Below, piece after piece: positions 438 through 64,000 of a stretch of DNA of 64,000 bases. Position 1 is the first letter of the stretch. The number at the start of each line of letters is the position of its first letter. Made by a program: the position numbers and the translations under genes. Source of the stretch: Chiloscyllium plagiosum (taxonomy: Eukaryota); NCBI RefSeq assembly GCF_004010195.1, contig NC_057757.1:8143051-8207050 (forward strand). Direction: 5' to 3'. Below the pieces are notes generated by a model that was not told the DNA's origin, did no database searches, and was given only the letters and a program-made list of their open reading frames with translations.

Positions 438-728
438 TCATGAAATATTTATTATATATCGAAATTTGAACACCTTTACAATGAAATTGAAGGAAAATAC
501 AATCCCACTCCTTAACTCATTTCTGAACTTACTCTGGGTCCCTGCATAAATAAATGGGTTTATACAGGAACTTAAGATCTGAAGCATATACCCACATTCT
601 TCCAGTTTGAAATTGGATTCAATGTAATTGGAACCTGAGAAATAATTTATGTTAGCAATTCGGACGTAGAGAAATGATAATAGAAACAGCAGCCATAACA
701 GGATGAAACTGCCTGAGATACAGAACAA
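438..728 (-). CDS. GPR139-like: GPR139-like class A GPCR, gene A: 3' part of exon 2 (TM6-ECL3-TM7-helix 8); 5' part lost in the N-gap
   Basis: LFCISGSFILLWL...GYMLQILSSCINPFIYAGTQSKFRNEL aligns to TM6/TM7 of genes B, C and E; NPxxY present; frame runs into gap 729-1228. Confidence 0.85.
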   Translation of the reverse strand: MFCISGSFILLWLLFLLSFLYVRIANINYFSGSNYIESNFKLEECGYMLQILSSCINPFIYAGTQSKFRNELRSGIVFSFNFIVKVFKFRYIINIS

Positions 729-1228
729 NNNNNNNNNNNNNNNNNNNNNNNNNNNNNNNNNNNNNNNNNNNNNNNNNNNNNNNNNNNNNNNNNNNNNNNN
801 NNNNNNNNNNNNNNNNNNNNNNNNNNNNNNNNNNNNNNNNNNNNNNNNNNNNNNNNNNNNNNNNNNNNNNNNNNNNNNNNNNNNNNNNNNNNNNNNNNNN
901 NNNNNNNNNNNNNNNNNNNNNNNNNNNNNNNNNNNNNNNNNNNNNNNNNNNNNNNNNNNNNNNNNNNNNNNNNNNNNNNNNNNNNNNNNNNNNNNNNNNN
1001 NNNNNNNNNNNNNNNNNNNNNNNNNNNNNNNNNNNNNNNNNNNNNNNNNNNNNNNNNNNNNNNNNNNNNNNNNNNNNNNNNNNNNNNNNNNNNNNNNNNN
1101 NNNNNNNNNNNNNNNNNNNNNNNNNNNNNNNNNNNNNNNNNNNNNNNNNNNNNNNNNNNNNNNNNNNNNNNNNNNNNNNNNNNNNNNNNNNNNNNNNNNN
1201 NNNNNNNNNNNNNNNNNNNNNNNNNNNN

Positions 1229-2409
1229 TAGATGTGATCTATATGGACTTCAGTAAGGCATTTGACAAGGTTCCCCATGGGAGACTGATTAGCAAGGTTA
1301 GATCTCATGGAATGCAGGGAAAACTAGCCAGTTGGATACAGAACTGGCTCAAAGGTAGAAGATAGAGGATGGTGATGGAGGGTTGTTTTTCAGACTGGAG
1401 GCCTGTGACCAGTGAAGTGCCACAAGAATCAGTGCTGTGTCCTCTACTTTTTGTCATTTACATAAATGATTTGGATGCGAGCAAAAGAGGTCAAGATAGT
1501 AAGTTTGCAGATGACACCAAAATTGGGGTGCAGTGGACAGCGAAGAGGGTTACCTCAGATTACAACAGGATCTGGACCAGATGGACAAATGGGCTGAGAA
1601 GTGGCAGAAGGAGTTTAATTCAGATAAATGCGAGGTGCTGCATTTTGGGAAAACAAATCTTAGCAGGACTTATACACTTTATGGTAAGGTCCGAGGGAGT
1701 GTTTCTGAACAAAGAGACCTCGGAGTGCAGGTTCCTAGCTCCTTGAAAGTGGAGTCACAGGTAGATAGTATCGTGAAGAAGGCATTTGTTATGCTTTCTT
1801 TTATTGGTCAGAGTATTGAGTGCAGGAGTTGGGACGTCATGTTGCGGATGTACAGGACATTGGTTAGGCCAGTGTTGGAATATTGCGTGCAATTCTAGTC
1901 CCCTTTCTGTCAGAAAGGCGTTGTGAAACTTGAAAGGGTTCAGAAAAAATTTACAAGGATGTTGCCAGGGTTAGAGGATTTGAGCTATAGGGTTGGAGCT
2001 GTTGTCCCTGGAACGTCGGAACCTGAGTGGTCACCTTATAGAGGTTTACAAAATTATGAGGGGCATGGATAGGGCAAATGGGGAAAGTCTTTTCCCTGGG
2101 GTTGGGGAGTCCAGATCTAGAGGGCATAGATTTAGGGTGAGAGGGGAAAGATATAAAAGAGATCTACGGTGCAATTTTTTCACACAGAGGGTGGTACGTG
2201 TATGGAATGAGCTGCTACAGGAAGTGGCGAAGGCTGATACAATTGCAACATTTAAGAGGCATTTGGATGGGTATATGAATAGGAAGGGCTTAGAGTGATA
2301 TGGGCCATGTGCTGGCAGGTGGGACTAGATTGAGTTGGGATATCTGGTCGGCATGGATGGGTTGGATCGAAGGGTCTGTTTCCATGCTGTACATCTCTAT
2401 GACTCTATG
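1229..2409 (+). mobile_element. CR1/HER1-type LINE, 5'-truncated (RT to 3' tail)
   Basis: DVIYMDFSKAFDKVPHGRL, SKFADDTKIG, LVRPVLEYCVQF; stops and frameshifts; ends in ctctatgactctatga tail. Confidence 0.92.
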
Positions 2410-2702
2410 AGCAGGAGATTTGACGTTTCGGGCATAAGCACTCATCATGAGTGAAGCCATATCCAGATATCATCTCCCTGCTACTCTCTTCATTGTTGTA
2501 GTTGAAGCAACATGACCAGCTATCTGGGGTTTTATTTTCAAAAATGCCTTACCTTAATAGTCATAGAAACAATCGGACACAGTTCTCCAACACAGTGTTG
2601 ATGATCCGATCTATCTTCCCTTGATGCAGTTCTTTTGGTCTCAGGAAAATTTCAACTTTATTGTCAGTTCATGAGATGCTCCTTTCGACAAATCTTTCGC
2701 AT

Positions 2703-3805
2703 AGACACCAAAACTGGAGGTGCAGTGGAAAGCAAAGAAGGTTACCTCAGATTACAACAGGATCTGGACTAGCTGGGCCAATTGGCTGAGGAGTGGCAGA
2801 TGGAGTTTAATTCAGATAAATGTGAGGTATTGTATTGTGGGAAAGCAAATCTTAACAGGACTTATACACTTAATGGTAAGGTCCTAGGGAATGTTGCTGA
2901 ACAAAGAGACCTTGGAGTGCCTGCTCATAGCTCCTTGAAAGTGGAGTCGCAGGTTAATAGTACCGTGAAGAAGGCATTTGTTATGCTTTCCTTTATAGTC
3001 AGGGTAATGAGTATAGGATGGAAATGTGTTGCTGGAAAAGCGCAGCAGGTCAGGCAGCATCTAGGGAACAGGAGAATCGACGTTTCGGGCATTAGCCCTT
3101 CCTGAAGAAGGGCTAATGCCCGAAACGTCGAGTCTCCTGTTCCCTAGATGCTGCCTGACCTGCTGCGCTTTTCCAGCAACACATTTCCATCTCTGATCTC
3201 CAGCATCTGCAGACCTCACTTTCTCCTTAATGAGTATAGGAGTTGGGAGGTCATATTCCGGTCGTACAGGGCATTGGTTGTGCCACTTTGGAAAATTGCG
3301 TGCAGTTTTGGACTTCCTATCAGAAAGGTATCGTGAAACTTGAAAGGGTTCAGAAAAGATTTACAAGGATGTTGCCAGGGTTGGAGGAATTGATTTATAG
3401 GGAAAGGTTGAAAAGGCTATGGCTGTTTTCCCTGGAGCGTCAGAGGCTGCAGGTTGACCTTATAGATGTTTATAAAATCATGAGGGGCATGGATAGTCTA
3501 AATAGACAAGATCTTTTCCCTCTTGTTAAGGGCATAGGTTTTGGGTGAGAGGGGAAAGAGATTTAAGGGGCAACTTTTTCACGCACCACATGGTGTGTGT
3601 ATGGAATGAACTGGCAGAGGAAGTGGTGGAGGCTGGTGCAATTGCAATATTGAAAAGGCATCTGGAAGGATATATGATTGGGAAGGGTTTGGAGGGATAT
3701 GGGCCAGGTGCTGGCAAGTGGGACTAGATTAGGTTGGGATATGTGGTTGGCATGGAGGAGTTTGACTGAAGGGTCTGTTTCCATGCTGCACATCTCTATG
3801 GCTCT
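2703..3805 (+). mobile_element. CR1/HER1-type LINE 3' fragment, interrupted by a hairpin mini-element
   Basis: WAEEWQMEFNSDKCEVL, LERVQKRFTRMLPGLE, FFTH.MV.VWNEL; same family as 1229-2409. Confidence 0.9.
3019..3227. mobile_element. Penelope-terminus-derived palindromic mini-element with a minimal hammerhead-like core
   Basis: Near-perfect inverted repeat 3018-3190; 14-bp TSD taatgagtatagga at 3005-3018 and 3228-3241; CTGAAGA-a-GGGC-taat-GCCC-GAAACGTC at 3102-3128. Confidence 0.8.
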
Positions 3806-5605: not shown

Positions 5606-5614
5606 ATTGGCAGT

Positions 5615-6748: not shown

Positions 6749-6854
6749 TTCTTAACCATCCTGTCTACCCATGCTAACAATTTCATGGACCAATGGACTT
6801 CAGGTTGTTGTCCCAATACAGCTTCAATGGAGGCTCACTGATGATGTTACCTAG

Positions 6855-11327: not shown

Positions 11328-13592
11328 GGTCAGTGATGTAATTGATGGACAATGACAGTAAGGGGAGGAGGTCAGTGATGTATCTGATGGACAGTGACAG
11401 TAAGGGGGAGGTCAGTGATGTATCTGATGGACAGTGACAGTAAGGGGTAGGTCAGTGATGTATCTGATGGACAGTGACAGTAAGAGTGAGATCAGTGATG
11501 TATCTGATGGACAGTGACAGTAAGGGGGAGGTCAGTGATGTATGTGATAGACAGTGACAGTAAGGGAGAGGTCAGTGATGTATCTGATGGACAGTGACAG
11601 TAAGGGGGAGGTCAGTGATGTATCTGATGGACAGTTACAGTAACGAGGCGGTCAGTGATGTATCTGATGGACAGTGACAGTAAGGGGGAGGTCAGTGATG
11701 TATCTGATGGACAGTGACAATAAGTGGGAGGTCAGTGATGTATCTGATGGACAGTGACAGTAAGGGGGAGGTCAGTGATGTATCTGATGGACAGTGACAG
11801 TAAGGGGGAGGTCAGTGATGTATCTGATGGACAGTGACAGTAAGGGGGAGGTCAGTGATGTATCTGATGGACAGTGACAGTAAGGGGGAGGTCAGTGATG
11901 TATCTGATGGACAGTGACAGTAAGGGGGAGGTCAGTGATGTATCTGGATGGACAGTGACAGTAAGGGGGAGGTCAGTGATGTATCTGGATGGACAGTGAC
12001 AGTAAGGGGGAGGTCAGTGATGTATCTGGATGGACAGTGACAGTAAGGGGGAGGTCAGTGATGTATGTGATAGACAGTGACAGTAAGGGAGAGGTCAGTG
12101 ATGTATCTGATGGACAGTGACAGTAAGGGGGAGGTCAGTGATGTATGTGATAGACAGTGACAGTAAGGGAGAGGTCAGTGATGTATCTGATGGACAGTGA
12201 CAGTAAGGGGGAGGTCAGTGATGTATGTGATAGACAGTGACAGTAAGGGAGAGGTCAGTGATGTATCTGATGGACAGTGACAGTAAGGGGGAGGTCAGTG
12301 ATGTATGTGATAGACAGTGACAGTAAGGGAGAGGTCAGTGATGTATCTGATGGACAGTGACAGTAAGGGGGAGGTCAGTGATGTATCTGATGGACAGTGA
12401 CAGTAAGGGGGAGGTCAGTGATGTATCTGATGGACAGTGACAGTAAGGGGGAGGTCAGTGATGTATCTGATGGACAGTGACAGTAAGGGGGAGGTCAGTG
12501 ATGTATCTGATGGACAGTGACAGTAAGGGGGAGGTCAGTGATGTATCTGATGGACAGTGACAGTAAGGGGGAGGTCAGTGATGTATCTGATGGACAGTGA
12601 CAGTAAGGGGGAGGTCAGTGATGTATCTGATGGACAGTGACAGTAAGGGGGAGGTCAGTGATGTATCTGATGGACAGTGACAGTAAGGGGGAGGTCAGTG
12701 ATGTATCTGATGGACAGTGACAGTAAGGGGGAGGTCAGTGATGTATCTGATGGACAGTGACAGTAAGGGGGAGGTCAGTGATGTATCTGATGGACAGTGA
12801 CAGTAAGGGGGAGGTCAGTGATGTATCTGATGGACAGTGACAGTAAGGGGGAGGTCAGTGATGTATCTGATGGACAGTGACAGTAAGGGGGAGGTCAGTG
12901 ATGTATCTGATGGACAGTGACAGTAAGGGGGAGGTCAGTGATGTATCTGATGGACAGTGACAGTAAGGGGGAGGTCAGTGATGTATCTGATGGACAGTGA
13001 CAGTAAGGGGGAGGTCAGTGATGTATCTGATGGACAGTGACAGTAAGGGGGAGGTCAGTGATGTATCTGATGGACAGTGACAGTAAGGGGGAGGTCAGTG
13101 ATGTATCTGATGGACAGTGACAGTAAGGGGGAGGTCAGTGATGTATCTGATGGACAGTGACAGTAAGGGGGAGGTCAGTGATGTATCTGATGGACAGTGA
13201 CAGTAAGGGGGAGGTCAGTGATGTATCTGATGGACAGTGACAGTAAGGGGGAGGTCAGTGATGTATCTGATGGACAGTGACAGTAAGGGGGAGGTCAGTG
13301 ATGTATCTGATGGACAGTGACAGTAAGGGGGAGGTCAGTGATGTATCTGATGGACAGTGACAGTAAGAGGGAGGTCAGTGATGTATCTCATGGACAGTAA
13401 CAGTAATGGGGAGGTCAGTGATGTATCTGATGGACATTGACAGTAAGTGGGAGGTCAGAGATGTATCTGGATGGACAGTGACTGTAAGGGAGCGGTCAGT
13501 GATGTATCTGATGGACAGTGACAGTAAGGGGGAGGTCAGTGATGTATCTGATGGACAGTGACAGTAAGGGTGAGATCCGTGATGCATCTGAT
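11328..13592 (+). repeat. 40-bp minisatellite, about 56 copies (GGTCAGTGATGTATCTGATGGACAGTGACAGTAAGGGGGA)
   Basis: Directly visible tandem array with a homogeneous core and no unique spacers. Confidence 0.98.
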
Positions 13593-14009
13593 GAACGGAT
13601 GTTTGTCAGTCTGATTGTAAGGTTTGATTGTGACTCTTACTGTTGATATGAGTTAAGAGTATATTTGTAGAATAGGTCTGTTATTCGGAGGTATCTGTTT
13701 TTCAGATGAGCCACATTGGTTTGAGAATTTACATCATGCATTGTGTTTTTAATCAGTTTAAATGATTCCCTGAATTTGATTTCAAATAAATACTGAAAGT
13801 GAACCTGTTTATGATATTGATGTCATGTGAGTAGCTGAATTGGATTTATGTTACAAAACGCAATTGCAAGCTATACAGACTGTGGCTTGATATTATCACT
13901 GAGCTCCTCCTGTGAGCTCAAGCCTAATGTTCAGTTGGCGTGGATCTCAAGTTAAAATCCATTCCAATTTGGAATTCTAATCCATGTCTCCATTGCTGGA
14001 AGTCCATTA

Positions 14010-14571
14010 TTGTTCACTGAGCCCTTTCCTTCAGGAAAGACAGTATGTTTTCCTCACTTGTTCCTTCATGTGACTCCAGGTCCTGGGAAATTGGGAATGG
14101 GGAATAAATGATGACCTCACAGTGATGTACACATTCAGTGTGTGAGAAGAATCACATTTCAATCAGTCAGTGAAATGTTCTTGTTTAAAGAGGGCAGCTC
14201 CGACTCACAATACAGAAGGACAGCTCGGAGACATATTTTCAATCCTGGAACAAACTGTCTTGATGCAGCATCGGTTGAACTAATTTGTGACCTTGGGATG
14301 AGGCTCATGATGTTTGAATGGACAATGTTATTGCTGGCAGATTGCAGATTCTGTTTTTGTTATTTCATTATAATGTACGGAGCAACAATGCTTCTTCATA
14401 ATCTGGATTACACTTGTTATTGTAATGGGTTTGTTCATTTCCAGAAATGTGAAAAACAGCAACAAAGCCGAGCAATGCTGTCACCTTGATCTCCCCAAGG
14501 AGCTTCTCTGGGAATGCATCAGCTCAGAGTCTCAAACAAGGAGCTTGTCAGCTACCTGAAGGGGCAGATCC
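14010..14571 (+). pseudogene. Promoter/5'-UTR relic of a C/D/E-type GPR139-like gene, truncated just before the start codon
   Basis: Colinear with 39360-40025 (-) and 61220-61511 (+); lacks the ~20-bp segment holding TATAAG; ends at ggggcagatcc with no exon 1 CDS. Confidence 0.85.
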
Positions 14572-18854: not shown

Positions 18855-21129
18855 GGGCGGAATGAATACAGAGATGAGCAGACACTGGAATGTAGATTGA
18901 ATTAGCACATTAAAACACGACATGTTAGCTAAAGGATTCTTACATTAGCTGTAACCAGATAACTTTGTTGGAACTGGACAAAGATCAACATTCCTTTACA
19001 TCTCCTGTAATGAGGAATTTAATAGATTGCTGAAGTAATAGACAATACCTAATTAATTAACAGTAAATATGGCACAGTTGGCACATGTTACTTGAATACA
19101 GTATCCATTGTGAAAAGCCTCAAGAAAGGAGATTAGATTCTGGAAAACATCATGAAGCCCCGGGATGGACCATAAGCCTCTCCATAACTCAGCTCTGCTG
19201 ACTAATAGTAATCCCAGGGTTGGGTGGGGTGGGGTGGGGGGGAAGACGGGACAAAGTTGTACTAAAATACAGTTTCACTTAAATCTACCACTGGACTCCG
19301 ACTGGCATCAGAAAATATAAGATTGAACAGGAAGTTAAACACAGACCACAATTTGCTTTTGGAAATGGGCAAGAGGCCTTTGGAGAATTGACGCTTTCGG
19401 AAGAGTATTGACAGGTTGAAAATACACGAGCAGAGAGTCTTTCATTTCTTGTCTGTTTAACACTCTGTAACAATCTTCAAAAGTAAGGAGATGGTTTGTC
19501 TGAACCACGAGGTCCTTCTTAATATGTGCACAATGCACGAGAGAGACAGAGATGCTGGTAGAGCAGCCTTTTACAATTGTACTCGGGTTACAGCTGGATA
19601 AACCTTTGGACACTACTTCTTCCTGTCATGGCTCCAAATTCTGAACAAGACAATCTTCAGAGAATTTATGTTTGCAATCTCCATGTAACCATGAATTCAC
19701 CTTAACTGTTTTAATACTGAATACCATCTTTCTGATTCCAACCTTCAGAGGTGTCCCTCAGTGAGCTCCTCCACCATTCCCTCTATTTCACTGGTGCCTT
19801 GTTACCCTCATTCCCCAATCAAATGACTTGGCCTCAGACACACAGAACTTTAACAGCGATAAAGCACAGTTAGAAAGTTTATTTCATTTCTGTCTCTGAG
19901 TACAGCCTTCATTCAGTGAGAGTCAACACTTCAAGGCTCCAACATGAGACATAACCTGTTTCTGGTGAGTGTCTTCATTCAGTGAGAAGGAGCAGTGTGG
20001 GCCAGTGGGACCTCATCACTGTATTTGGGATTTTCTGCTCAGTCTGCAGCATTCCAGCCCGTGGTAGTAGTGCAATGGGAAAGTCTCCTCTTGTGGATTA
20101 CAATAGTCCTTTCAACACACAGTTCCAGGCCAGTTTCAGAACTCCGAGAATTCGGAGTTAGACCCTGAAAACTACATTGATTAAAGGAGGAGGAACAAGA
20201 AAATAGTTTCAAGCTGATGAGGTCATCGGCGTCTCTGTGCCTCACTCTGCAGCACGTTTTATTTTCTGCTTCATAAAACCACAAACTGCAGCTCAACCCA
20301 ATCTTCCTGCCCCATCATACAAACTGGAGAATGGGACACTTTTCTCAGTAGTACAAGAGTACATTCCAGAGATTGTCAGTTTAACACCAGGGCTGTGTAT
20401 CCTTAGAATAACCTGGACCAGATCAACACAAATCCAATTGGGAAGGGTGGGTCTGTTTAAGGAGAGTCAGTGTGATTTTCAAATTAAACAAACGTGACTG
20501 TGCCTGATGAAATAAAATGACAGATTGATGAAGGGATGGTTTTCCAATGTGTTTTACAAATTATGACCTGAGAGTCGGGATAAAAACTGAAGCTATTGTA
20601 ATAAATGGCAGAAGATCACCATGGAGAAAGAATGTATTTGGACAGAAACATGCTGTGATGATAAATCACTGTAACTGGCAGACAGCAGAGAGGAAGCCAT
20701 GTTGTTTTTATTGCAAGGCTCAGTATTCTATTCTTGTATTTTATCAAGATACAAATGAGATAGACAAACTTGGATTTGACAGAGATGGTGAGAATGATCC
20801 AAGTCAACAGCATTGGGGCCCAGGCAGGCAATTATGAATATTGGCAGGAAGTAGCAAAAAATAGAAGATGGAATCGAACAGACTTAAGACTGAGTGGGGT
20901 CTGGCATAAAAGACTAATGAGAGGAAACATCGACCAAACGACAGAGTAGACGCTGGTGTCACTGAAAATTTGAAATATAACCTCAGTAGGTCTGGCAGCA
21001 TTCGTGATGACAGAATCAGAACCCAATTCTCCCACACCAGTCTTTGAGGAATCAATGGCTCTCCCTAATCTGATTGGCTCTGTGCCAATTAACACTTGGC
21101 ATCGATATTAATCCAGATATCTGAGGTTT

Positions 21130-21400
21130 CAGCTTCTTCATTCGACACCGAGCACTGGACAGTGACCAGGTTAAACCTTGTTTCTTGCCTGGTATATGTC
21201 ACTTGTACCGACATGGATCTTGCCCATCCCATTGCAGACTTGTCTTCAACCCTGATCATGGGCCCTGAACCCCAGCATGGGAAGGGAACACAGCCTCCTG
21301 GACTCACGTCCTGTGCTGCAGAAAAGGGTGTCGATCACTGTGAGCCCCTGACTACAATTCCATTGCTCTTAGCTTCTCCCACTTGTTTGGCTTTCTGTTC
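21130..21400 (-). mobile_element. Degenerate CR1 ORF1 (SGNH esterase region); paralog at about 50430-50710 (+)
   Basis: Minus-strand relic IVVRGS..IDTLFCSTGRESRRLCSL...HVGTSDI resembles the CR1 ORF1 GDSIVRG...CLPGA...HVGTND blocks. Confidence 0.6.
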
Positions 21401-21699
21401 CTCTGGTGTCACAGTCAAGTCTCTCTTGCCAAAGAATGTGGCTCCTGTTCTGCGGCTGTCTGTGTCGCTGTCCACACCTCAATCGTAATCACGCTCTCCT
21501 ATCTCTGCGTACTGACCAAAATCAGACAATCTAACCCTCCAAGTTGTACCAGCCTCCTGCTGCAAAGTATACAACGACTCTTTCCCCGAGCCAAGGCAGT
21601 GTCTGTATGTCAAGCTGCAGCTGTGACAGATTGTTCATGCTGTTGGCCTTAATGTGTTCCAAATAACTGGTTCTTTTTCACAAATTCAATCCATTGAAT

Positions 21700-24600
21700 C
21701 ATGGAGTCCGACAGAACAGAGAAAGGCCCTTTGGCCCAAACTGGTCCGTGCCGATCAAAATGTCCGTCCCTGCTAACCCCATTACCCTGCACTTGGCACA
21801 TATCCTTCTAATCCTTTCCTGTCCATACATTTGTCCAAACGCCTTTTAAATGCTGTTAATGTTCCGCCTCAAACACTGCTGCTGACAGCTCATTCCATAT
21901 GCGTACCACCCTCTGTGTAAAAACGTTAACCTTCAGTTTCCCTTTCATTCTTTCCCCATTAACCTTAAAGTGATGTCCTCTAATCCTCAATTTCCCAACC
22001 CTACCAAAAAAAGACTGTGTGCATTGACCCAATCCATGCCTGTCTGATCTTATATATCTCTACAACTCACCCCCTCCCCCTCAGTCTGCTATGCATTAAA
22101 GAATAAAGTTTGAGCTTGTCTAAACTCTTCCTATAACTCAGACTGTTGAGTCCAGGCAACATCCTTGTAAATTTTATCTGGACTCTTTCCAGTTTAATAA
22201 CATCCTTCCTATAGAAAGGTGACCAAAACTGAACACAATACTCAAATTGCTGCCTCACCAACGTCCTGTATAACTGCAACATAACTTCCCAACTTCTATA
22301 CCCAGTGCCCTGACTGATGAAGGCCAATGTGCCCAAAGCTTTGCCCTGTCTACCTCTGAGTCCACTTTCTAAGAACTGTGCACCTGAACTCCAAGGTCCC
22401 TCTGTCTCACTACAGTCCTTAAGGCCCTGCCATTCACCATGAATCTCCTCCCTTGATTTGACTTTCAAAAATGCAAGATCTTACAGTTATCAATATTAAA
22501 CACCATTTGCCATTTCTCAGCCCACTTCCCCAGCTGGTCAAGGTCCTGCTGCAACTTCTGATAACCTTCCTTACAATCCATGATACAGCCTATCTTACTG
22601 TCATCTGCAAACTTGCTAATCATGCCCTTGTACGTTCTCATCCAAAACATTGATATCGATAACAAAAAGCAATGGGCCTAGCTCTGACCCCTGAGGCATT
22701 CCAGTCTGACAAACATCCTTCCACTATTACCCTCTGCTCCCTGCCACCAAGCCAATTGTGTATCCAGCTCCCCCTGGATTCCATACAATCTAATCTTCCA
22801 GAGCACCCTCCCTTGTGGAACCTTACCAAAGGCCTTCCTGAAATCCATATGGACCACGTATTCTGCCCTGCCCTTGTCAACTTTCCTGGTCACTTCATCA
22901 AAGAGCTCTAACAAATCTGTGAGGCACGGTCTCCCATTCACAAAGCCGTGCTGACTACTCCAAATCAAACCCTGATTTCCCAAACGCATGTATTTCTTAT
23001 CTCTCAAAATCTTCTCAAGTAACTTACCCACCCCAGATGTTAGATTTACTGGCTGATAGTTGACACGTTTATCTTTGTAGCTGATCTTGAATAATGGCAC
23101 AATATTCGCTACCCTCCAGTTTTCAAGGACCTCACCCGTGGCTAACGATGATGCTAAAATATCAGCCAGGGCCCCTGCAATTTCTTCTCTCGCCTCTCGC
23201 AGTGTTTATAGATATATTTGTCAGGACCAGGAGATTTATTCACTTTTACACTTTCTAATACATCTAACTCCTCCTCTACTGAGATATGGACTGTCCGCAA
23301 GGTATCACCATTAACTTCTTCAAATTCCCAAGTCTTCATGTCTTTCTCCATGGTCAACACAGCGGAGAAATGTTCATTGAGGACCTCACCCATGTCCTGC
23401 AGTTCTACACAAACATGTCCACTTTGGTCCTTGAGGAGCCCTATTCTCTCTCGAGTTAGTCTTTCCCATTTAATACATTTAAAAGTACCTCTTTCAATTC
23501 ATCCTAATCATCTCAGCCCAGGCTAACTCCTGCTGTCTTTTGACCCTCCTGGTTTCCTTCTCCAGTAAACACCTGTATCCCCTTTGTACCTCCAGGGGTC
23601 CCTTGATCCCACCTGCCTCTATCTGAGCCACTCCAGGTGAAAGCCTCAATATCTCTTGTCATCCAGGATTCCCTATTCCTGCCAACCATGCCTTTCACCC
23701 TCACAGGAACATACACACCTTGTACTCCAGCAATCTCCCTTTTAAAGGCCTCCCACTTGCCGGAGTTCCCTGAACCTGCAAACAAACTGCTCCAGTCAAC
23801 CNNNNNNNNNNNNNNNNNNNNNNNNNNNNNNNNNNNNNNNNNNNNNNNNNNNNNNNNNNNNNNNNNNNNNNNNNNNNNNNNNNNNNNNNNNNNNNNNNNN
23901 NNNNNNNNNNNNNNNNNNNNNNNNNNNNNNNNNNNNNNNNNNNNNNNNCCTCCAGTTTTCAAGGACCTCACCCGTGGTTAACGATGATGCTAAAATATCA
24001 GCCAGGGCCCCTGAAATTTCTTCTCTCACCTCTCGCAGTGTTTATAGATATATTTGTCAGGACCAGGAGAATTATCCACTTTTACACTTTCTAATACATC
24101 TAACTCCTCCTCTACTGAGATATGGACTGTCCGCAAGGTATCACCACTAAATTCCTCAAATTCCCAAGTCTTCATGTCTTTCTCCATGGTCAACACAGAG
24201 GAGAAATGTTCATTGAGGACCTCACCCATGTCCTGCAGTTCTACACAGACATGTCCACTTTGGTACTTGAGGGGACCTATTCTCTCTCGAGTTAGTCTTT
24301 CCCATTTAATACATTTAAAAGTACCTCTTTCAATTCATCCTGATCATCTCAGCCCAGGCTAACTCCTGCTGTCTTTTGACCCTCCTGATTTCCTTCTCCA
24401 GTAAACACCTGTATCCCCTTTGTACCTCCAGCGGTCCCTTGATCCCACCTGCCTCTATCTGAGCCACTCCAGGTGAAAGCCTCAATATCTCTTGTCATCC
24501 AGGATTCCCTATTCCTGCCAACCATGCCTTTCACCTACACAGGAACATACACACCTTGTACTCCAGCAATCTCCCTTTTAAAGGCCTCCCACTTGCCGGA

Positions 24601-25850: not shown

Positions 25851-26510
25851 NNNNNNNNNNNNNNNNNNNNNNNNNNNNNNNNNNNNNNNNNNNNNNNNNN
25901 NNNNNNNNNNNNNNNNNNNNNNNNNNNNNNNNNNNNNNNNNNNNNNNNNNNNNNNNNNNNNNNNNNNNNNNNNNNNNNNNNNNNNNNNNNNNNNNNNNNN
26001 NNNNNNNNNNNNNNNNNNNNNNNNNNNNNNNNNNNNNNNNNNNNNNNNNNNNNNNNNNNNNNNNNNNNNNNNNNNNNNNNNNNNNNNNNNNNNNNNNNNN
26101 NNNNNNNNNNNNNNNNNNNNNNNNNNNNNNNNNNNNNNNNNNNNNNNNNNNNNNNNNNNNNNNNNNNNNNNNNNNNNNNNNNNNNNNNNNNNNNNNNNNN
26201 NNNNNNNNNNNNNNNNNNNNNNNNNNNNNNNNNNNNNNNNNNNNNNNNNNNNNNNNNNNNNNNNNNNNNNNNNNNNNNNNNNNNNNNNNNNNNNNNNNNN
26301 NNNNNNNNNNNNNNNNNNNNNNNNNNNNNNNNNNNNNNNNNNNNNNNNNNGATTGTAATTGGGGAGAAGAGATAGGGTTAACTAGTCAGGACATGTCCTG
26401 CTCATGTACACATTCCCTTTACAGTTTTTGATTTCATTACTTTTGTTTGTAGTTGTAATTAGGCTCATTAACTTGGGAATTGATTTTCTGATCTGATGAA
26501 TTCTGCCTCC

Positions 26511-26517
26511 TATAAAT
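26511..26517 (+). promoter_or_regulatory. TATA box candidate for gene B
   Basis: TATAAAT 96 bp upstream of the ATG at 26607; in-frame TAA upstream at 26556. Confidence 0.55.
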
Positions 26518-26606
26518 AATGGAAGTTTTCTCAATTTCTCAAAGAGAGAACTTGCTAATCCCTGACAAAAATCATCAAAATAACTGTAATTTACAAAAGG
26601 GAAACC

Positions 26607-26703
26607 ATGTCTCTTAGTTTTATGGTCAAGCTGAAGATTTTGTGGGCGATCACTGATATACAGAGGATTTACTACCCGGTCTTAGCTGCTGTTGGTGTCC
26701 CGG
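26607..26703 (+). CDS. GPR139-like: GPR139-like receptor B, coding exon 1 (MSLSFMVKLKILWAITDIQRIYYPVLAAVGVP plus phase-1 G)
   Basis: ACCATG start; TM1 start YYPVLAAVGVP; donor G|GTAAGT at 26704; joins exon 2 in frame as GVP-V-N. Confidence 0.9.
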
Positions 26704-36940: not shown

Positions 36941-37040
36941 AACAAAATCATTTCATGGTTTGGAAACAGTCGGACCCTCCTGTGGGGTTCACTGAGGAGT
37001 TTTATTTATTCACAATGCAATGAATCCGTGTAACCAGGTA

Positions 37041-39279: not shown

Positions 39280-39346
39280 CTGGGATGCCAGTAACAGCAA
39301 GGATGGTGTAGAACACCTTCTGCACATGATCAATTGGTCGATGCAT
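39280..39346 (-). CDS. GPR139-like: GPR139-like receptor C, coding exon 1 (MHRPIDHVQKVFYTILAVTGIP plus G)
   Basis: AAAATGC start; donor G|GTATGG; phase 1, in frame with exon 2; same intron position as genes B and E. Confidence 0.88.
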
Positions 39347-39433
39347 TTTCCTGTGCGAGGTGATCTGTCCCTTCAGGTAGCTGTAAAGTTCCTCGTTTGA
39401 AACTCTGAGCTGATGCATTCCCAGAGACGCTGC

Positions 39434-39439
39434 CTTATA
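39434..39439 (-). promoter_or_regulatory. TATA-like TATAAG upstream of gene C
   Basis: About 90 bp upstream of the ATG; conserved in gene E at 61432-61437. Confidence 0.45.
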
Positions 39440-40050
39440 CTGTGTGGAAGCTCCTTGGGGAGATCGAGGTGACAGCATTGCTCGGCTTTGTTGCTATTTT
39501 CACATTTCTGGAAATGAACAAACCCATTACAATAACAAGTGTAATCCTGATTACAGAGGTGGGTGTACATGATAATGAAATAACAAAAGCAGAATCTGGA
39601 ATCTGCCAGCAATAATGCTGTCCACTCAAACACCATGAGCCCTATCCCGAGATCACACCGTATTTCATGATGTGAAGGTGCTGGTGTTTGAATGGGGTGG
39701 ACACGTTCAACCTGTTGAACGAGAACCTGGTGTTGTGTGATTTTTGACAAATTATTTCAAGTGATGCTGCATCGAGACAGTTCATTCCAAGTGTGAACAT
39801 ATGTCTCTGAGCTGTCCTTCTGTACTCTAGGGTAGGAGCTGCCCACTTTAAACAAGAACATTTTACTCACTAAGTGAAATGTGATTCCTCTCACACACTG
39901 AATGTGTACATCACTGCGAGGTCAGCATTTATTCCCCATTCCCAATTTTCCGGGATCTGGAGCCCCATGAAGGTTGAAGTAAGGACAACATACTGCCTTT
40001 CCTGAGGGAAGGGGTCTCAGTGAACAAGATGGACCTCCAACAATGGGGAC

Positions 40051-42145
40051 GTCACTGACCTCCCTCTTACTGTTACTGTCCATCAGACACATCAATGACC
40101 TCCCCCTTACTGTCACTGTCCATCAGATACATCACTGACCTCCCCCTTACTGTCACTGTCCATCAGATCCATCACTGACCTCCCTCTTACTGTCCCTCTC
40201 CATCAGATACATCACTGACCTCCCCCTTACTGTCACTGTCCACCAAATACATCACAGACCTCCCCCTTACTGTCACTGTCCATCAGATACATCACTGACC
40301 ACCCCTTTACTGTCACTGTCCATCAGATACATCACTGACCACCCCTTTACTGTCACTGTCCATCAGATACATCACTGACCACCCCTTTACTGTCACTGTC
40401 CATCAGATACATCACTGACCACCCCTTTACTGTCACTGTCCATCAGATACATCACTGACCACCCCTTTACTGTCACTGTCCATCAGATACATCACTGACC
40501 ACCCCTTTACTGTCACTGTCCATCAGATACATCACTGACCACCCCTTTACTGTCACTGTCCATCAGATACATCACTGACCACCCCTTTACTGTCACTGTC
40601 CATCAGATACATCACTGACCTCCCCCTTACTGTCACTGTCCATCAGATACATCACTGACCTCCCCCTTACTGTCACTGTCCATCAGATACATCACTGACC
40701 TCTCCCTCACTATTACTGTCCATCAGATCCATCACTGACTTCCCCCGTACTGTTACTCTCCATCAGATGCATCACGGACCTCCCCCTTACTGTCACTGTC
40801 CATCAGATACATCACTGACCTCCCACTTACTGTCACTGTCCATCAGATACATCACTGACCTCTCCCTCACTATTACTGTCCATCAGATCCATCACTGACA
40901 TCCCCCTGACTGTCACTGTCCCTCTACATACATCACTGACCTCCCTCTCACTGTCACAGTCCATGAGATACATCACTGACCTCCCCCTTACTATTACTCT
41001 CCATCAGATACATCACTGACCTCCCCCTTACTGTCACTGTCCATTAGATACATCACTGACCTCCCACTTACTGTCACTGCCCATCAGATACATTACTGAC
41101 CTCCCCCTCACTGTCACTGTCCATCAGATACATCACTGACATCCCCCTGACTGTCAATGTCCCTCTACATACATCACTGACATCCCCCTCACTGTCACAG
41201 TCCATCAGATACATCACTGACCTCCCCCTTACTGTCCCTCTCCATCAGAGACATCACTGACCTCCCCTTACTGTCACTGTCCATCAGACACATCACTGAC
41301 CTCCCCCTTACTGTCACTGTCCATCAGATGCATCACTGACCTCCCCTTACTGTTACTGTCCATCAGATACATCACTGACCTCCCCCTTACTGTCACTGTC
41401 CATCAGATACATCACTGACCTACCCCTTACTGTCACTGTCCATCCAGATACATTACTGACCTCCACCTTACTGTCACTGTCCATCAGATACTTCACTGAC
41501 CTCCCCCTTACTGTCACTGTCCATCAGTTACATCACTGACCTCCCCCTTACTGTCACTGTCCATCAGATACATCACTGACCTCCCCCTTACTGTCACTGT
41601 CCGTCAGGTACATCCCTGACCTCTCCCTCACTGTCACTGTCCATCAGATACATCACTGACCTCCCTCTCACTGTCACTGTCCATCAGATATATCACTGAC
41701 CTCCACCTTACAGACACTGTCTGTCAGATACATCACTGACCTCCCCCTTACTGTCATTGTCCATCAGATACATCACTGACCTCCAACTTACTGTCACAGT
41801 CCATCAGATACATCACTGACCTCCCCCTTACTGTCACTGTCCATCAGGTACATCCCTGACCTCCCCCTCACTGTCACTGTCCATCAGATACATCACTGAC
41901 CTCCCTCTTACTGTCACTGTCTGTCAGATACATCACTGACCTCCCCCTCACTGTCACTGTCCATCAGATATATCACTGACCTCCCCCTTACTGACACTCT
42001 CTGTCTGATACATCACTGACCTCCACCTTACTGTCACTGTCCATCAGATATATCACTGACCTCCCTCTTACTGTCACTGTCCATCAGATACATCACTGAC
42101 CTCCCCCTTACTGTCACTGTCCATCCAGATACATCACTGACCTTC
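40051..42145 (-). repeat. 40-bp minisatellite, about 52 copies, reverse complement of the 11328-13592 array
   Basis: Unit catcagatacatcactgacctcccccttactgtcactgtc; more degenerate than the left array. Confidence 0.98.
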
Positions 42146-43400: not shown

Positions 43401-44771
43401 CTCCTCCCCCTCCCAGCTTGCTCTCTCTTCCCCACAATGTCCCCTCCCTGTGATCTCCTTTGCCCCCTCACCCTGCTGTCTGTCTCCCCTCCCCCATGTT
43501 CTCTTTATCCCATCATCCCTGTGTTCCCTCTCTCACCCAAGTTTCCTTCCCCCGCGATCTGTTTCTGCAATCCCCGCAGCCTCGTAATGCCCTGCTTCCC
43601 CCAAAAATGTTTACTCCCTCCCTCAAATTTATGTCCCTTCCTTCCCTCCCTCTGTAACTAAAGCATATAAGGAGTTGGGGGAGAGAGCCGTGCTGTTGTA
43701 CAATGTGTTGGCAGCAGTGTGAGCCGTAAGGCTTTGGTTCGGGAGGTTTCAGAGAGCAGCGGCTCAGTTAAAAATCCAGGGAAGCTCCGGTAATGTTCTT
43801 TTAACACTCCGTTTCAGTCTGGCAGCAGCTGAGATGGCAGTTAGGGCAGGAATCCCCTGTGGCCATTGCCCTCGCAAACAAGTATCCCGTTTGGGAACCT
43901 GTTGGGGGCGGGTGGGGTGGGTGTGTTACTGTTCAGGGGAAAGCAGCAGTATCCCGGATTTACACTGTAAATCTACCCACCAACATCTCAATGTGGAGGG
44001 ACCAGGAGGGCAATCTGTCAAAATTTCAGTCTCCTGACCAAAGCATGTGAGGAGGAGGAGAGAATTTCCAGGAGGGATGGTAGATGAAATTTTACAAATC
44101 AAAGCAAGGTGAAAATCTTTCAATTCCTTTGATTTGCAAAATAAAAAGAACAATTTCAGATTGAAAATTCCCAACTGATGTAGTGTCCATGACTGTGTGG
44201 AAGAGAGTTCCAAGTCTTTCCCATCTTCTGTGCATAGAACAGCTTCCAAACATCTCTCCTGAACACTCTCGGCCCTCAGTCTCAGACGATGGTGTTTCAT
44301 TCTGGAATGTCCAACCAGTGCAAATAGTTTATCTTTTCTTTTAATAGCTTGTCAGTCTTCACTCAGATCATCCCTTAACCTTTGAAATTCTCAATCAACC
44401 AGGCTTCATTTACAGAATGAAAGCAGAAATAGTTCAGCTGGTTTGGCAACATCTGTGGGAGAGAGCACAGAGCTAACGTTTCGGGTGAAGTGATCCTTCT
44501 TCAGAACTAACTTGCTGACCTCTCCTCATACCTTCAAGCCATATGAAACTGGAACAGATGATAGAACGCTGAGACCAGAAAATGCTGCAGCAGCAGTGAA
44601 GTTGGGAGTCTCTGTCAGTGTAGGATTGTACCGAGAATGCTGCTCAGTGAATTGCTGTCACTGTCCCGGGGTCTGGATAAGGGTGACCAGTTAGTGAGCT
44701 GGAGGTGTTATTGTTCAAAAGGTAAAACCAGAGAGCAGATCAAGACAAGTTCAATTGTCATAGCACCATAC

Positions 44772-44838
44772 CTGGGATGCCAGTAACAGCAAGGATGGTG
44801 TAGAACACCTTCTGCACGTGATCAATTGGTCGATGCAT
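44772..44838 (-). pseudogene. Gene D: duplicated exon 1 of receptor C with no exon 2 of its own (orphan or alternative first exon)
   Basis: Encodes the identical MHRPIDHVQKVFYTILAVTGIP with an intact GTATGG donor; intron homology to gene C ends at about 43960. Confidence 0.85.
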
Positions 44839-44927
44839 TTTTCTGTGCGAGGTGACCTGTCCCTTCAGGTAGCTGACAAGCTCCTTGTTTGAGACTCTGA
44901 GCTGATGCATTCCCAGAGACGCTGCCT

Positions 44928-45095
44928 TTTAGATTACTTACAGTGTGGAAACAGGCCCTTCGGCCCAACAAGTCCACACCGCCCCGCCGAAGCGCAACCC
45001 ACCCATTCCCCTACATCTACCCCTTACCTAACACTACGGGCAATTTAGCATGGCCAATTCACCTGACCTGCACATCTTTGGACTGTGGGAGGAAA
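44928..45095 (-). mobile_element. V-SINE/HE1-type SINE 3' part at the TATA-like site of promoter D
   Basis: ttagattacttacagtgtggaaacaggccc...gcatggccaattcacctgacctgcacatctttggactgtgggagga; runs into a gap. Confidence 0.8.
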
Positions 45096-45459
45096 NNNNN
45101 NNNNNNNNNNNNNGGGGGTTACATGATAATGAAATAACAAAAGCAGAATCTGGAATCTGCCAGCAATAACGCTGTCCACTCAAACACCATGAGCCCCATC
45201 CCGAGATCACACCCTATTTCATGAACAAAGGTGCTGGTGTGGGAGTGGGGTGGACAAGTTTAACCTGTTGGACTGGAACCTGGTGTTGTGTGATTTTTAA
45301 CAAATTATTTCAATTGATGCTGCATCGAGACAGTTAATTCCAAGTGTGAACATATGTCTCTGAGCTGTCCTTCTGTACTCTAGGGTAGGAGCTTCCCACT
45401 TTATACAAGAACATTTCACTCACTGATTGAAATGTGATTCTTCTCACACACTGAATTGT

Positions 45460-57145: not shown

Positions 57146-57169
57146 TGTGTGTGATAGATGGAGTTTGAG

Positions 57170-58940: not shown

Positions 58941-59039
58941 TTATTCAAACATATGTGTAGGTGTGTGTGCATACGTATAGGTATGTGTGGGTTGGTCAGA
59001 CTGTATTTTTTATTGTGTGTGTCTCTTTGCATATGTCTC

Positions 59040-59520: not shown

Positions 59521-59524
59521 CACG

Positions 59525-60767: not shown

Positions 60768-61112
60768 AGGCACAGTGGCTCAATGGTTAGCTCTGCAACC
60801 GCACAGTGCCAGGGACCAGAGTTTGATTCTAGTCTGGGGCAACTGTCTATGTGGAGTTTGCACATTCTCCCCATGTCTGCATGTGTTTCCTCCGGGTGCT
60901 CTGGTTTCCTCCCACAGTCCAAAAGTGTGCAGGTCAGGTGAAATGGCCAAGCTAAGTTGCCCCTAGTGTTCAGGGATGTGTAGCTTAGCTGCATTAGTCA
61001 GGGGAAGTGTTGGGTTATAAGGTAAGGGATGAGTCTGGGCGGGATACTCTTTGGAGGGTCGGTATGGACTTGTTGGGCCAACTGGCCTGTTTCCACACTA
61101 TCGGGGTTCTAT
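60768..61112 (+). mobile_element. Full-length V-SINE/HE1-type tRNA-derived SINE
   Basis: ggcacagtggctcaatggttagctctgc head, V-domain-like core, gcctgtttccacact tail. Confidence 0.85.
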
Positions 61113-61431
61113 GAAATAATTTTTCAAAAATCACACAACACCAGGTTCTAGTCCAACAGGTTGAACTAGTCCACCCCGATTCAATACCAGCACCTTCACA
61201 TCATGAAATAGGGTGTGATCTCGGGATGGGGCTCATGGTGTTTGAGTGGACAGCGTTATTGCTAGTAGATTCCAGATTCTGTCTTTGTTAGTTTATTATC
61301 ATGTAACCCCCCTCTGTAATCAGGATTACACTTGTTATTGTAATGGGTTTGTTCATTTCCAGAAATGTGAAAAACAGCAGCAAAGCCGAGCAATGCTGTC
61401 ACCTCGATCTCCCCAAGGAGCTTCCACACAG

Positions 61432-61437
61432 TATAAG
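61432..61437 (+). promoter_or_regulatory. TATA-like TATAAG upstream of gene E
   Basis: Conserved with the gene C promoter; about 90 bp upstream of the ATG. Confidence 0.45.
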
Positions 61438-61524
61438 GCAGCGTCTCTGGGAATGCATCAGCTCAGAGTTTCAAACAAGGAGCTTGTCAGCTGCCTGAAG
61501 GGACAGATCCCCTCACACAGAAAA

Positions 61525-61591
61525 ATGCTTCAACCAATTGATCACGTGAAGAAGGTGTTCTACTCAATCCTTGCTTTTATTGGCATTCCAG
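61525..61591 (+). CDS. GPR139-like: GPR139-like receptor E, coding exon 1 (MLQPIDHVKKVFYSILAFIGIP plus G)
   Basis: AAAATGC start; donor G|GTATGG at 61592; paralog of exon 1 of C and D. Confidence 0.9.
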
Positions 61592-63152
61592 GTATGGCAT
61601 TGTGACAATTGAAGTTGTTTTAATCTGCTGCTGATCTGCTCTTTGGTTTTACCATTTGAACAATAACATCTCCAGCTCATTGACTGGTCAGCCTTATCCA
61701 GACCCCGGGACAGTGACAGCAGTTCACTGAGCAGCATTTTCGGTACAATTCTCCACTGACATAGACTCCCAACTTCACTGCTGCTGCAGCATTTTCTGGT
61801 CTCAGCGTTCTGTGATCTGTTCCAGTTTCATGTGGTTTGAAGGCGTGAGGAGAGATCAGGCAGGTTAGTTCTGAAGAAGGGTCACTGCACCCGAGACATT
61901 AACTCTGTGGTCTCTCCCCCAGATGCTGCCAGACGTAATGAGCAATTTCTAGTTTTGTTATGCAAGTGAGGCATATTATCAGCAGAGGTTTGAAGGTTAA
62001 GACGTGATCTGTGCGATTTTCTACAAGATATTGCTCAGAAACAACAGGACAGATAAAGATAAACAGTTTCCATTCACACCTAGTTCCACGAGAATTTTAA
62101 AGCTTTAAGAGGCGATTTCAGCAAAATCATGCAAGATATTGAAAGGAAAAGGCAGGCTAGGATTAACAATTGCCTTTGGTTGGGCATTCTAGCACGAGGG
62201 AGCATAGTCTGACAATGAGGTCCTGTGTGCTTATGAGAGATGTTCGGAAGCACTTCTACACACAATGGGTGGGAGAGCTTTGGAAATATCTTCCACAAAT
62301 GGCAATGGGTACTGGAGCAGTTGGTCAGTTTGAATGAGGTAAGTCTTTTTTATGAAGAAAAGGAATTGAGTGGTATGGACCTGTTTTGAATTTTAAAAGC
62401 TTCATGTAACTATCATCCCTTCTGGAAATTCTTTGCTCATCACCATCTCTGGTCAGGATGTTCAAATCAAGACAGATTGCCCACCTGATCCCTGCAGGTT
62501 GAGATATTTGTCATGTACATATTAACAATGTAACTATCACAGCAGTCCTAACATCCACATGTTATCACTAAGGGAGCAATGCATACTCTTTTATGCTACG
62601 CTTGTGTAGGACAGAAGGAGTAGTCTTGTTTGAAATCTACTGCAGGTTCTAATGATCTGTTTCCTAGTCATGTTGTGGCTCCTATCAGGTTTTGGTCTAA
62701 TGCTAAGAGCAGGGGATGCTCTCCTTCCTGGAAAAGGGGAGAATTTGGTTTATCAACAGTGCAAGCGCCAGTCCTATATCTGGGTTGGGAGTGAGGTTTA
62801 CTCATGGGGATCTGCACCTGCCAAAGTTGGAGCTGAGAACATTAAGAATCGATGACAGACGTTCAAATAGTCACCTTGCAACCAACCAAAACTACACAAT
62901 CTCTTCTGCTCTCTTAAGAGGGACTGTGGGGTAAGTCTCTTCCAAAATCCATAAACTCTGGAGTGATTAGGCTGGAGGACAGTCTGAGGTGGTTGTGAGA
63001 GTCTTAAAATTTAAACTCACTTGATGCAAAACAATTCAACTTACACGGTGTGCCAGTTCTGATGGTAAAAATGTATTGTTGCTCTCTGGAATAGATAATG
63101 GGAATTTCCAATCAATAATTCACTGTTTTTTTTTCTCATATGTCTCCCACAG

Positions 63153-64000
63153 TTAATTTGCTGGCGATTACAATCCTTGCCTGGGGAAAGTGTGGTGTTT
63201 CGTCTTGCACGACTCGCTACCTGGTGGTTATGGCAGCTGCTGATCTAATGGTTATTATCACTGAGATTATACTGTGGAGATTTCCCTTGTATTATTACAG
63301 GTGGTCTTTCTTGGATATCACTCCTGTGTGCAGTGTTATTGGGGTCCTGTTACGTACTGCCATAGATTGCTCTGTCTGGTTCACCGTCACTTTTTCCTTT
63401 GACCGACTTGTGACCATTTGTTGTCAGAAGTTGAGAATAAAATATTGTACTGAGAAAACTGCGTCTGTGGTTCTGGCAACAACCTGCACGCTGTTCTGGC
63501 TGAAAAACATCCCCTTCTATTTTTCAAATGAACCTCTGAGGATAATCAAAAATGTGCCATATGACTGTATTACAAAATCAAGCTACTTTACTGAGACTTG
63601 GTGGGTGGTATTAGATTGGCTTGATACAGTTTTGACCCCTTTACTGCCATTCGCTTTAATTCTGTTTATCAATGCTATGACAGTCAGACACATTTTAGTG
63701 ACCAGTCGAGTCCGGAAGAGGCTGAAAGGTGAGAGCAAAGGAGAGAAGCATAGAGACCCAGAGATGGAGAGCAGAAGGAAGTCTGTGATTTTGCTCTTCA
63801 CCATCTCTGGGAGCCTCATCCTCCTGTGGTTAATCATTGTTGTAGATTTCTTATATTATGCCATTCAAGGAATCAATCCTGACGATTACTCACCTTTTCT
63901 ATATCACTTCAGTGCGGTTGGTTTCATGCTGCAGAACCTAAGCTGTTGCACAAACACATTTATTTATGCAGCAACATTGCCCCGGTTCAGAGCGAAGATC
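63153..64000 (+). CDS. GPR139-like: GPR139-like receptor E, coding exon 2, 3'-partial (runs off the window)
   Basis: Acceptor tgtctcccacag|TT AAT; manual translation is open: VNLLAITILAWGKCGVSSCTTRYLVVMAAADLMV...TPVCSV...FSFDRLVTICCQKLR...DPEMESRRKS...MLQNLSCCTNTFIYAATLPRFRAKI. Confidence 0.93.

What the first reader, a model, noticed from the sequence alone, without database searches (positions are those of the whole stretch)
438..64000. Birth-and-death cluster of divergent GPR139-like receptors: candidate chemosensory-type repertoire
Seen: four receptor coding loci (A, B, C, E), an orphan exon 1 and a promoter-only relic in 64 kb. B, C and E share one phase-1 intron in TM1 (GxP|V-N). Intracellular motifs are conserved (ICCQKLR, DPEMxSRRK) while ECL1, the top of TM3, ECL2 and ECL3 vary. 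C and E are roughly 80% identical by eye; A and B are far more distant. Established: mammalian GPR139 and GPR142 are single-copy class A receptors activated by aromatic amino acids (L-Trp; GPR139 also L-Phe), and sharks have few canonical OR genes. Inference: tandem expansion, pseudogene debris and ligand-face diversification match the pattern of chemosensory or immune-sensing receptor families, so this may be an uncharacterised sensory repertoire rather than GPR139 orthologs.
Basis: partly seen in the sequence, partly recalled or inferred. Interest (0 to 1): 0.85.

Follow-up and report, generated by a model that had tools for sequence, protein, structure and literature searches.

The report
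Giant shark GPR139-related receptor family
These genes are a small piece of a family of at least 1,700 receptor gene copies in one shark genome, whose predicted ligand-binding face is being diversified by selection, so they likely form a large, apparently undescribed set of chemical sensors in animals thought to have only a few dozen.

Summary
B, C and E are two-exon class A GPCR genes. A is only a 96-codon 3' fragment beside an assembly gap. The orphan exon 1 and the promoter relic are real. One exact 20-nt motif occurs 1,743 times genome-wide (control 1); about 2,600-3,000 exon-2 loci are estimated, and 9 of 31 sampled are open. Homologues are listed in sharks and rays. They are not GPR139 orthologues: GPR139 and GPR142 each exist separately. 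The family's sister is a little-known vertebrate orphan lineage (probably 'GPR210'), and the tryptophan pocket is not kept. Site models show positive selection on the extracellular face: omega 3.1 in the C/E clade, in predicted pocket positions, and 9.8 in a dispersed clade, in outer loops. That clade gives rare polyadenylated RNA in an unlabelled tissue. Sensory expression is untested, so chemosensory (about 0.5) versus immune (about 0.25) stays open. Ten literature searches found no description; RefSeq labels the genes 'probable GPR139'. This scan noted the family before, in a ray genome and elsewhere in this genome.

The parts
438..728 (-). Locus A: last 96 codons (TM6, TM7, helix 8) of an A-type receptor; the 5' part is missing at the N gap 729-1228
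   Evidence: window 1-728 is 94.7% identical to the intact A-type neighbour at G000:C48:8.11 Mb, with no matching exon 1 or intron right of the gap
11328..13593 (+). 40-nt tandem array (56 copies) upstream of the promoter relic
   Evidence: inverted paralogue of the 40052-42143 array
13986..14570 (+). Promoter/5' UTR relic of C/E type; TATA region deleted, ends just before the ATG
   Evidence: 81-86% identical to the C and E upstream regions; sequence read
26509..26703 (+). Gene B: TATA-like box (about 26511) and exon 1 (coding 26607-26703, 32 codons plus one base)
   Evidence: 25 of 32 residues identical to the annotated zebra shark protein P0001
27492..28384 (+). Gene B exon 2 (rest of TM1 to stop); spliced protein 329 aa; rare TM7 residues
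   Evidence: 83.9% identical to P0001
37041..37903 (-). Gene C exon 2; spliced protein 309 aa; Tyr at 3.25 and an early stop in helix 8; AATAAA at 37010
39280..39442 (-). Gene C exon 1 (coding 39346-39280) and TATA-like box (about 39440)
40052..42143 (-). 40-nt tandem array (52 copies) upstream of the C promoter
43958..45456 (-). Orphan copy of C: promoter interrupted by an insertion and a small gap, exon 1 (44838-44772) and part of the intron; no exon 2
   Evidence: 86-93% identical to the C region
61429..61591 (+). Gene E: TATA-like box and exon 1 (coding 61525-61591)
63153..64000 (+). Gene E exon 2, completed just beyond the window; spliced protein 322 aa with canonical residues
   Evidence: (L051)

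Best explanation
The window holds three two-exon class A GPCR genes plus debris from an elasmobranch family of at least 1,700 copies that likely acts as a chemosensory receptor repertoire. Shown: the copies arise by gene and half-gene duplication, many die, the G-protein-facing half is under purifying selection (omega 0.2-0.3), and selection repeatedly changes the extracellular half. Inferred: each receptor would couple a different ligand to a shared signalling route. The C/E clade varies predicted deep pocket positions (2.61, 3.32, 3.36, 45.51, 6.51, 7.36), as expected for small ligands; the dispersed clade varies the pocket rim and loops, as expected for peptides or proteins. Inferred and untested: expression in sparse sensory cells (nose, skin or mouth/gill epithelium) and amino-acid- or peptide-type ligands, suggested only by kinship to GPR139/142 and invertebrate peptide receptors.
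For: Size: 1,743 exact TM3-motif hits (control 1); 1,570 TM7-motif hits (control 14); 2,424 exon-1 donor-motif hits (control 9); capture-recapture gives about 2,600-3,000. Birth-and-death: 8 exon-2 loci in 244 kb around the window, 5 of them open; 9 of 31 gap-free sampled exons open. Selection: C/E clade n=31, LRT 89, omega2 3.15, 9 of 10 sites extracellular (p 0.001), 6 of 10 in a 28-position pocket set (p 8e-5); dispersed clade n=24, LRT 426, omega2 9.75, 14 of 14 sites extracellular (p 1e-6). Null simulations gave LRT at most 0.1 (4 plain) and at most 23 (4 with extreme mosaicism). Old and shared: homologues in 7 shark genera and 6 ray genera. RNA: 9 reads with a poly(A) tail 251 nt after the stop and a 3' read pile on the sense strand; the genomic site is not A-rich and follows an ATTAAA hexamer. 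Known olfactory repertoires of cartilaginous fishes are only 20-62 genes (PMC10869828).
Against: No tissue evidence: run labels are coded. RNA is rare (423 of 12.96 million reads laid, many on repeats) and no splice joint was seen. Contig-level signal in guessed-RNA runs cannot be separated from DNA carry-over. The B clade shows only weak positive selection (n=10, LRT 12, 1 site, pocket omega 0.19). The dispersed clade's sites are not enriched in the pocket set (3 of 14, p 0.15), and omega near 10 on surface loops fits a pathogen arms race as well. Catshark olfactory neurons are nearly all Go/TRPC2 microvillous cells that match V2R use (PMC10116579). About 70% of sampled copies are broken, 9 of 10 dispersed-clade exon 2s had no exon 1 within 26 kb, and counts include unplaced contigs that may be allelic. 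The pocket set and helix numbering are recalled conventions placed by motif and by a model of the zebra shark orthologue; the set was fixed after I had seen the C/E site list once.
Confidence: 0.5

Rival explanations
1. Innate immune sensing repertoire (like FPR or MRGPR expansions) on leukocytes or barrier epithelia, diversified by microbial or parasite ligands.
For: Omega 9.75 on outer loops in the 649-hit dispersed clade. Family words are held by 14 guessed-RNA runs from 5 studies (share about 0.3, only two laid), which would fit a cell type present in many tissues.
Against: No 'GPR139' or 'receptor 139' string in 4 supplement files of a shark immune-cell atlas (PMC11372145), though its gene names may hide the family. 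C/E selection falls on deep pocket sites. The signal in those runs may be DNA.
Confidence: 0.25
2. Receptors for endogenous or conspecific peptides in reproduction or neuroendocrine signalling (gamete or mate recognition).
For: GPR139 relatives are tied to invertebrate allatostatin-B/MIP peptide receptors (PMC12208981 passages). The family keeps the TM3-ECL2 cysteine pair that GPR139/142 lack.
Against: No matching large ligand family was looked for or is known to me. Thousands of copies with about 70% broken is unlike hormone receptors, whose nearest singleton (L098) stays conserved across jawed vertebrates.
Confidence: 0.12
3. Mostly neutral amplification by segmental duplication or a mobile unit; few copies matter.
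For: Many broken and half genes; satellite- and retroelement-rich introns; dispersed copies 91-94% alike.
Against: Inner-half omega 0.21-0.32 and positive selection confined to the extracellular side. Coding exon about 93% alike versus 80-86% for flanks, and no transposase-length ORF or inverted ends appeared in the shared unit. Subfamilies are shared across sharks and rays.
Confidence: 0.08

Closest known systems
GPR139 and GPR142 (L-Trp/L-Phe-activated class A orphans; PDB 7vug, 9m42)
   Same: Best solved-structure match by sequence (37 bits) and first by fold, narrowly; same phase-1 intron in TM1.
   Different: Only 23-35% identical. Each exists as its own single gene here. Separate clade; AU test rejects family+GPR139/142 (p 0.032). 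Pocket residues F3x33, H5x43, W6x48, N7x38 kept in 8, 46, 89 and 0 of 91 members.
'GPR210A/B' orphan subtypes of Rinne et al. 2019 (PMC6504862)
   Same: Described as three orphan gene sets next to GPR139/142 in coelacanth, gar and fishes. The family's sister L098 has orthologues in coelacanth, sturgeon, bowfin, teleosts, amphibians, turtles and squamates; L087 has bichir and lamprey relatives.
   Different: That paper has no shark data (0 occurrences of 'shark') and reports no expansion. I could not compare its Ensembl sequences, so the identity is inferred.
RefSeq/UniRef models named 'probable G-protein coupled receptor 139' in sharks and rays
   Same: These are the same family: 2,106 clusters at E<=1e-10, and 118 of the 120 listed are named shark proteins.
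   Different: Automatic label only; no paper describing the family was found.
Vertebrate chemoreceptor repertoires (OR, TAAR, V1R, T2R) and FPR/MRGPR expansions
   Same: Large clustered family, many pseudogenes, almost all coding sequence in one exon, diversified ligand face (general features recalled).
   Different: Independent origin; Pfam gives only 7tm_1; one coding intron; sensory expression untested.

Membership tests
Class A (rhodopsin-like) GPCR | 7tm_1 domain and seven-helix fold with D2.50, DR3.50, W6.48, NxxY7.53 | tested here: met
   Pfam 7tm_1 69-73 bits for B, C, E; model of the zebra shark orthologue has 7 helices plus helix 8, pLDDT 74.5; motif columns
GPR139/GPR142 | Groups with GPR139/142 in a tree | tested here: not met
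   family 100/100; with L098, L087, bichir and lamprey proteins 98/96; AU p 0.032 against family+GPR139/142
GPR139/GPR142 | Trp/Phe pocket residues F3x33, H5x43, W6x48, N7x38 | tested here: not met
   8, 46, 89 and 0 of 91 (residues from the PMC5430874 abstract)
GPR139/GPR142 | Phase-1 intron in TM1 | tested here: met
   acceptor AG at the same place in GPR139, GPR142, L087, L098 and every family locus that could be aligned; shows deeper kinship only
GPR139/GPR142 | Activation by L-Trp or L-Phe | not testable with these tools
   needs a cell assay
GPR210 (Rinne et al. 2019) | Orphan lineage beside GPR139/142 present in coelacanth, gar and fishes | tested here: inconclusive
Canonical odorant receptors (OR) | OR-type Pfam domain and intronless coding region (recalled) | tested here: not met
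   only 7tm_1; coding intron present
Chemosensory receptor repertoire (functional class) | Large birth-and-death family with diversified ligand face | tested here: met
Chemosensory receptor repertoire (functional class) | Sparse expression in sensory neurons or cells | not testable with these tools
   tissue labels coded; no usable supplement found

The most novel reading that the evidence does not exclude
Sharks and rays carry a further, independently evolved vertebrate chemoreceptor family. It was built from an orphan sister lineage of GPR139/142, has several hundred to over a thousand intact genes, and is far larger than their known 20-62 olfactory receptors. It would explain the long-standing mismatch between sharks' reputed sense of smell and their tiny known repertoire.
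Probability: 0.4. Interest if true: 0.95.

Novelty: new variant of a known kind. Interest (0 to 1): 0.82.

Why it matters
Published surveys credit cartilaginous fishes with 20-62 olfactory receptor genes (PMC10869828) and a 'relative paucity' of GPCRs (PMC8455134). A selected, ligand-face-diversified GPCR family of this size contradicts the paucity view whatever it senses. It makes the question directly testable: existing shark tissue and single-cell RNA data only need re-counting with family-aware mapping. If it is immune rather than sensory, it is a major unrecognised innate receptor system in the oldest living jawed-vertebrate lineage.

Tried and rejected
Expression: no RNA holder on record was listed, and tissues are coded. 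Exon/intron depth in the two contig runs did not clearly separate from the DNA control. Supplements: PMC11979771 unreadable; 12 of 24 files of PMC8455134 searched, 0 hits; PMC11372145 and PMC13188829 0 hits; PMC13689627 and PMC13200729 showed only canonical GPR139/142 orthologue rows in the places displayed. Unseen supplements, including closed bioRxiv ones, may bear on the novelty and tissue claims. Mobile-element carrier: no transposase-length ORF, inverted ends or sharp 5' border seen; rejected. Intronless start from an ATG 8-10 codons before the acceptor in 21 of 24 dispersed copies: explicable by common descent, not adopted. Promoter motif search: TATA-like boxes and a TGTTTGT-like element in several clades, but it was not found by pattern in C or E; not used. 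Origin by local duplication from GPR139 (family copies lie near it on C21): rejected by the tree. The careful 88-row tree did not finish and the quick tree was used; the 31-row careful tree left out 57-60 of those rows for time and added three. The atlas search only returned the 'probable GPR139' label. Chimaera or bony-fish members were not seen among 240 listed rows, but those lists stop at about 47% identity, so absence is not shown. No complex prediction was run.
Full report
Observation. The window is G000:C48:8143051-8207050 in a 3.56-Gb assembly of 101,977 contigs. The nearest named proteins are zebra shark (85%), so it is a shark. B (+), C (-) and E (+) have a short exon 1, a phase-1 intron in TM1 and an open exon 2, giving 329, 309 and 322 aa. 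B's exon 1 matches an annotated zebra shark protein at 25 of 32 residues, which supports the splice. All three hit Pfam 7tm_1 only. A is a 96-codon 3' fragment beside a 500-N gap, with no 5' part to its right. The orphan exon 1 at 44.8 kb and the promoter relic at 14 kb are real, and 40-nt arrays sit upstream of both the relic and C. C has lost the 3.25 cysteine (kept in 90 of 91 aligned members) and stops 13 codons early; B has rare TM7 residues; E is canonical. In the 244 kb around the window there are 8 exon-2 loci: 5 open, 2 frameshifted or partial on the right plus 1 frameshifted on the left counted among the rest, and A (one search lists nine aligned places if A is counted separately from the partial copy).

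Scale. Protein B gave 8,347 first-look candidates in the genome; 132 were scored and all were 60% identical or more, on many large scaffolds and unplaced contigs. Exact motif counts are 1,743 for TM3 (control 1), 1,570 for TM7 (control 14), 2,424 for the exon-1 donor (control 9) and 649 for one dispersed clade (control 0). Of the first 100 TM3 and 99 TM7 hits listed, 58 pair up, which scales to about 2,600-3,000 exon-2 loci (the listed part covers only large scaffolds). In 40 motif hits sampled from that list, 9 touched gaps and 9 of the other 31 had an open exon 2 (one search counted 7; one search showed two more were open). So several hundred to about a thousand or more open copies is the defensible range; allelic contigs and assembly errors are not removed. 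Public proteins: 2,106 clusters at E<=1e-10 for B, 118 of the 120 listed being named shark proteins. A basal member returns sharks and six ray genera.

Ancestry. A GPR139 motif found one gene on C21. Searching with it gave GPR142 on C24 (56%) and then only 23-35% matches. All aligned loci share the TM1 acceptor. In the careful 31-row tree the family is one clade (100/100), sister to L098 (90/90), then L087 with bichir and lamprey proteins (98/96), then amphioxus proteins (93/88); GPR139/142 with their own lamprey gene are separate, and forcing family+GPR139/142 is rejected (p-AU 0.032) (names; quick 88-row tree concordant). L098 has orthologues from coelacanth to squamates. This fits the 'GPR210' orphans of PMC6504862 (section 45 read), but I could not compare sequences. 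The GPR139 pocket (PMC5430874 abstract) is not kept: 8, 46, 89 and 0 of 91. The family keeps a TM3-ECL2 cysteine pair that GPR139/142 lack. An AlphaFold model of the zebra shark orthologue is a 7-helix bundle whose first PDB match is GPR139, only narrowly ahead of peptide receptors.

Selection. I used my own M1a/M2a codon models on open exon 2s. C/E clade (31 sequences): LRT 89, 6% of sites at omega 3.15; 9 of 10 sites with posterior above 0.95 are extracellular and 6 of 10 fall in a 28-position pocket set (2.61, 3.32, 3.36, 45.51, 6.51, 7.36); omega is 1.15 in the pocket, 0.56 in other extracellular sites and 0.32 in the inner half. Dispersed clade (24): LRT 426, omega 9.75, 14 of 14 sites extracellular, mostly loops and rim, inner half 0.28. 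B clade (10): LRT 12, one site, mainly purifying. Null simulations gave LRT 0-0.1 (4 plain) and 1.6-23 (4 with extreme block mosaicism), so recombination can inflate the test but not to the C/E or dispersed-clade values, and it would not place sites on one face. Helix numbering and the pocket set are recalled conventions; the set was written after I had seen the first site list. Sequences were best-score hits, not a random sample.

Expression. No listed holder was on record as RNA; 14 guessed-RNA contig sets held about 30-36% of the words. On a dispersed-clade copy, a poly(A) single-cell run gave 423 laid reads of 12.96 million. There was a sense 3' pile and 9 reads with a poly(A) tail 251 nt past the stop, at a site that is not A-rich. 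There were also opposite-strand reads over the start of exon 2, and no splice joint. The tissue is unknown, and the window's own genes were not tested.

Mechanism. Shown: duplication of whole and half genes, frequent death, a conserved cytoplasmic half and a diversified extracellular half. Inferred: many ligands funnelled into one signalling route. Most likely this is external chemosensation (0.5), next innate immune sensing (0.25), peptide or reproductive signalling (0.12) and neutral amplification (0.08). Against the nose specifically, catshark olfactory neurons are nearly all Go/TRPC2 cells matching V2R use (PMC10116579 abstract and section 6).

Novelty. Ten searches (listings seen) found no description of the family; the library lacks most subscription papers. 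Seen as passages: PMC11979771 (0 'GPR' hits), PMC12208981 (0 'shark'), PMC6504862, PMC8455134 (states GPCR paucity), PMC10869828 (20-62 olfactory receptor genes), PMC13113109 (nothing relevant). Supplement searches are listed under Tried and rejected. The genes are in RefSeq under an automatic name. Two earlier notes of this scan report the same family; they are not independent support, and the sister lineage, AU test and site-level selection were tested here.

Verdict: a real, very large, selected GPCR family that is apparently undescribed; function open; interest 0.82.

Noticed in passing
G000:C8:1.83-3.28 Mb; L155-L157; L112-L151: Exon-1 motifs cluster without exon-2 motifs (15 listed here). 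One exon 1 plus an intron collinear with the dispersed clade to about 900 nt before the acceptor has no exon 2 in 29 kb of gapless sequence, while 9 of 10 dispersed-clade exon 2s have no exon 1 within 26 kb. Long introns, half-gene debris or misassembly are all open.
   Followed up: partly
L129, L161, L163, L164, L166, L168 exon 1: Dispersed-type exon 1s carry a variable number of 42-nt (14-residue) N-terminal repeats, also seen in horn shark proteins, so N-terminal length varies by tandem repeat.
   Followed up: partly
L124:5750-6290: Opposite-strand RNA reads over the acceptor and the first third of exon 2, with a poly(T) loose end at 5872 and a shared loose end at 6286: possibly an antisense spliced transcript from some copy, or internal priming.
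   Followed up: no
L098 (G000:C26:36.60 Mb) and L087 (G000:C98156): Two further conserved GPR139-related singletons. L098 orthologues span coelacanth to squamates, none mammalian or avian among the 120 listed, and two are annotated as TMEM183A isoforms.
   Followed up: partly
window 19411-25675 and 52282-47027: Inverted duplication of about 6 kb of LINE-rich sequence, 87-89% alike.
   Followed up: no
promoters of B, L012, L152, L170, E: A TGTTTGT-like (forkhead-like, recalled) element 60-90 nt before the TATA-like box in several divergent clades; seen by eye, not tested statistically.
   Followed up: partly
G000:C48:8104581 (+) and 8227508 (+ frame): Long open frames of 1,484 and 1,026 codons near the cluster; the first reads like a LINE endonuclease/reverse transcriptase ORF.
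   Followed up: no
L125, about 0.1-3.5 kb past the receptor stop: An insertion with a retroviral-env-like fragment interrupts the 3' UTR of this copy.
   Followed up: no
G000:C21:58.7-60.2 Mb: Family copies lie within 0.5-1.5 Mb of canonical GPR139 near the scaffold end; probably coincidence, since the tree separates them.
   Followed up: partly
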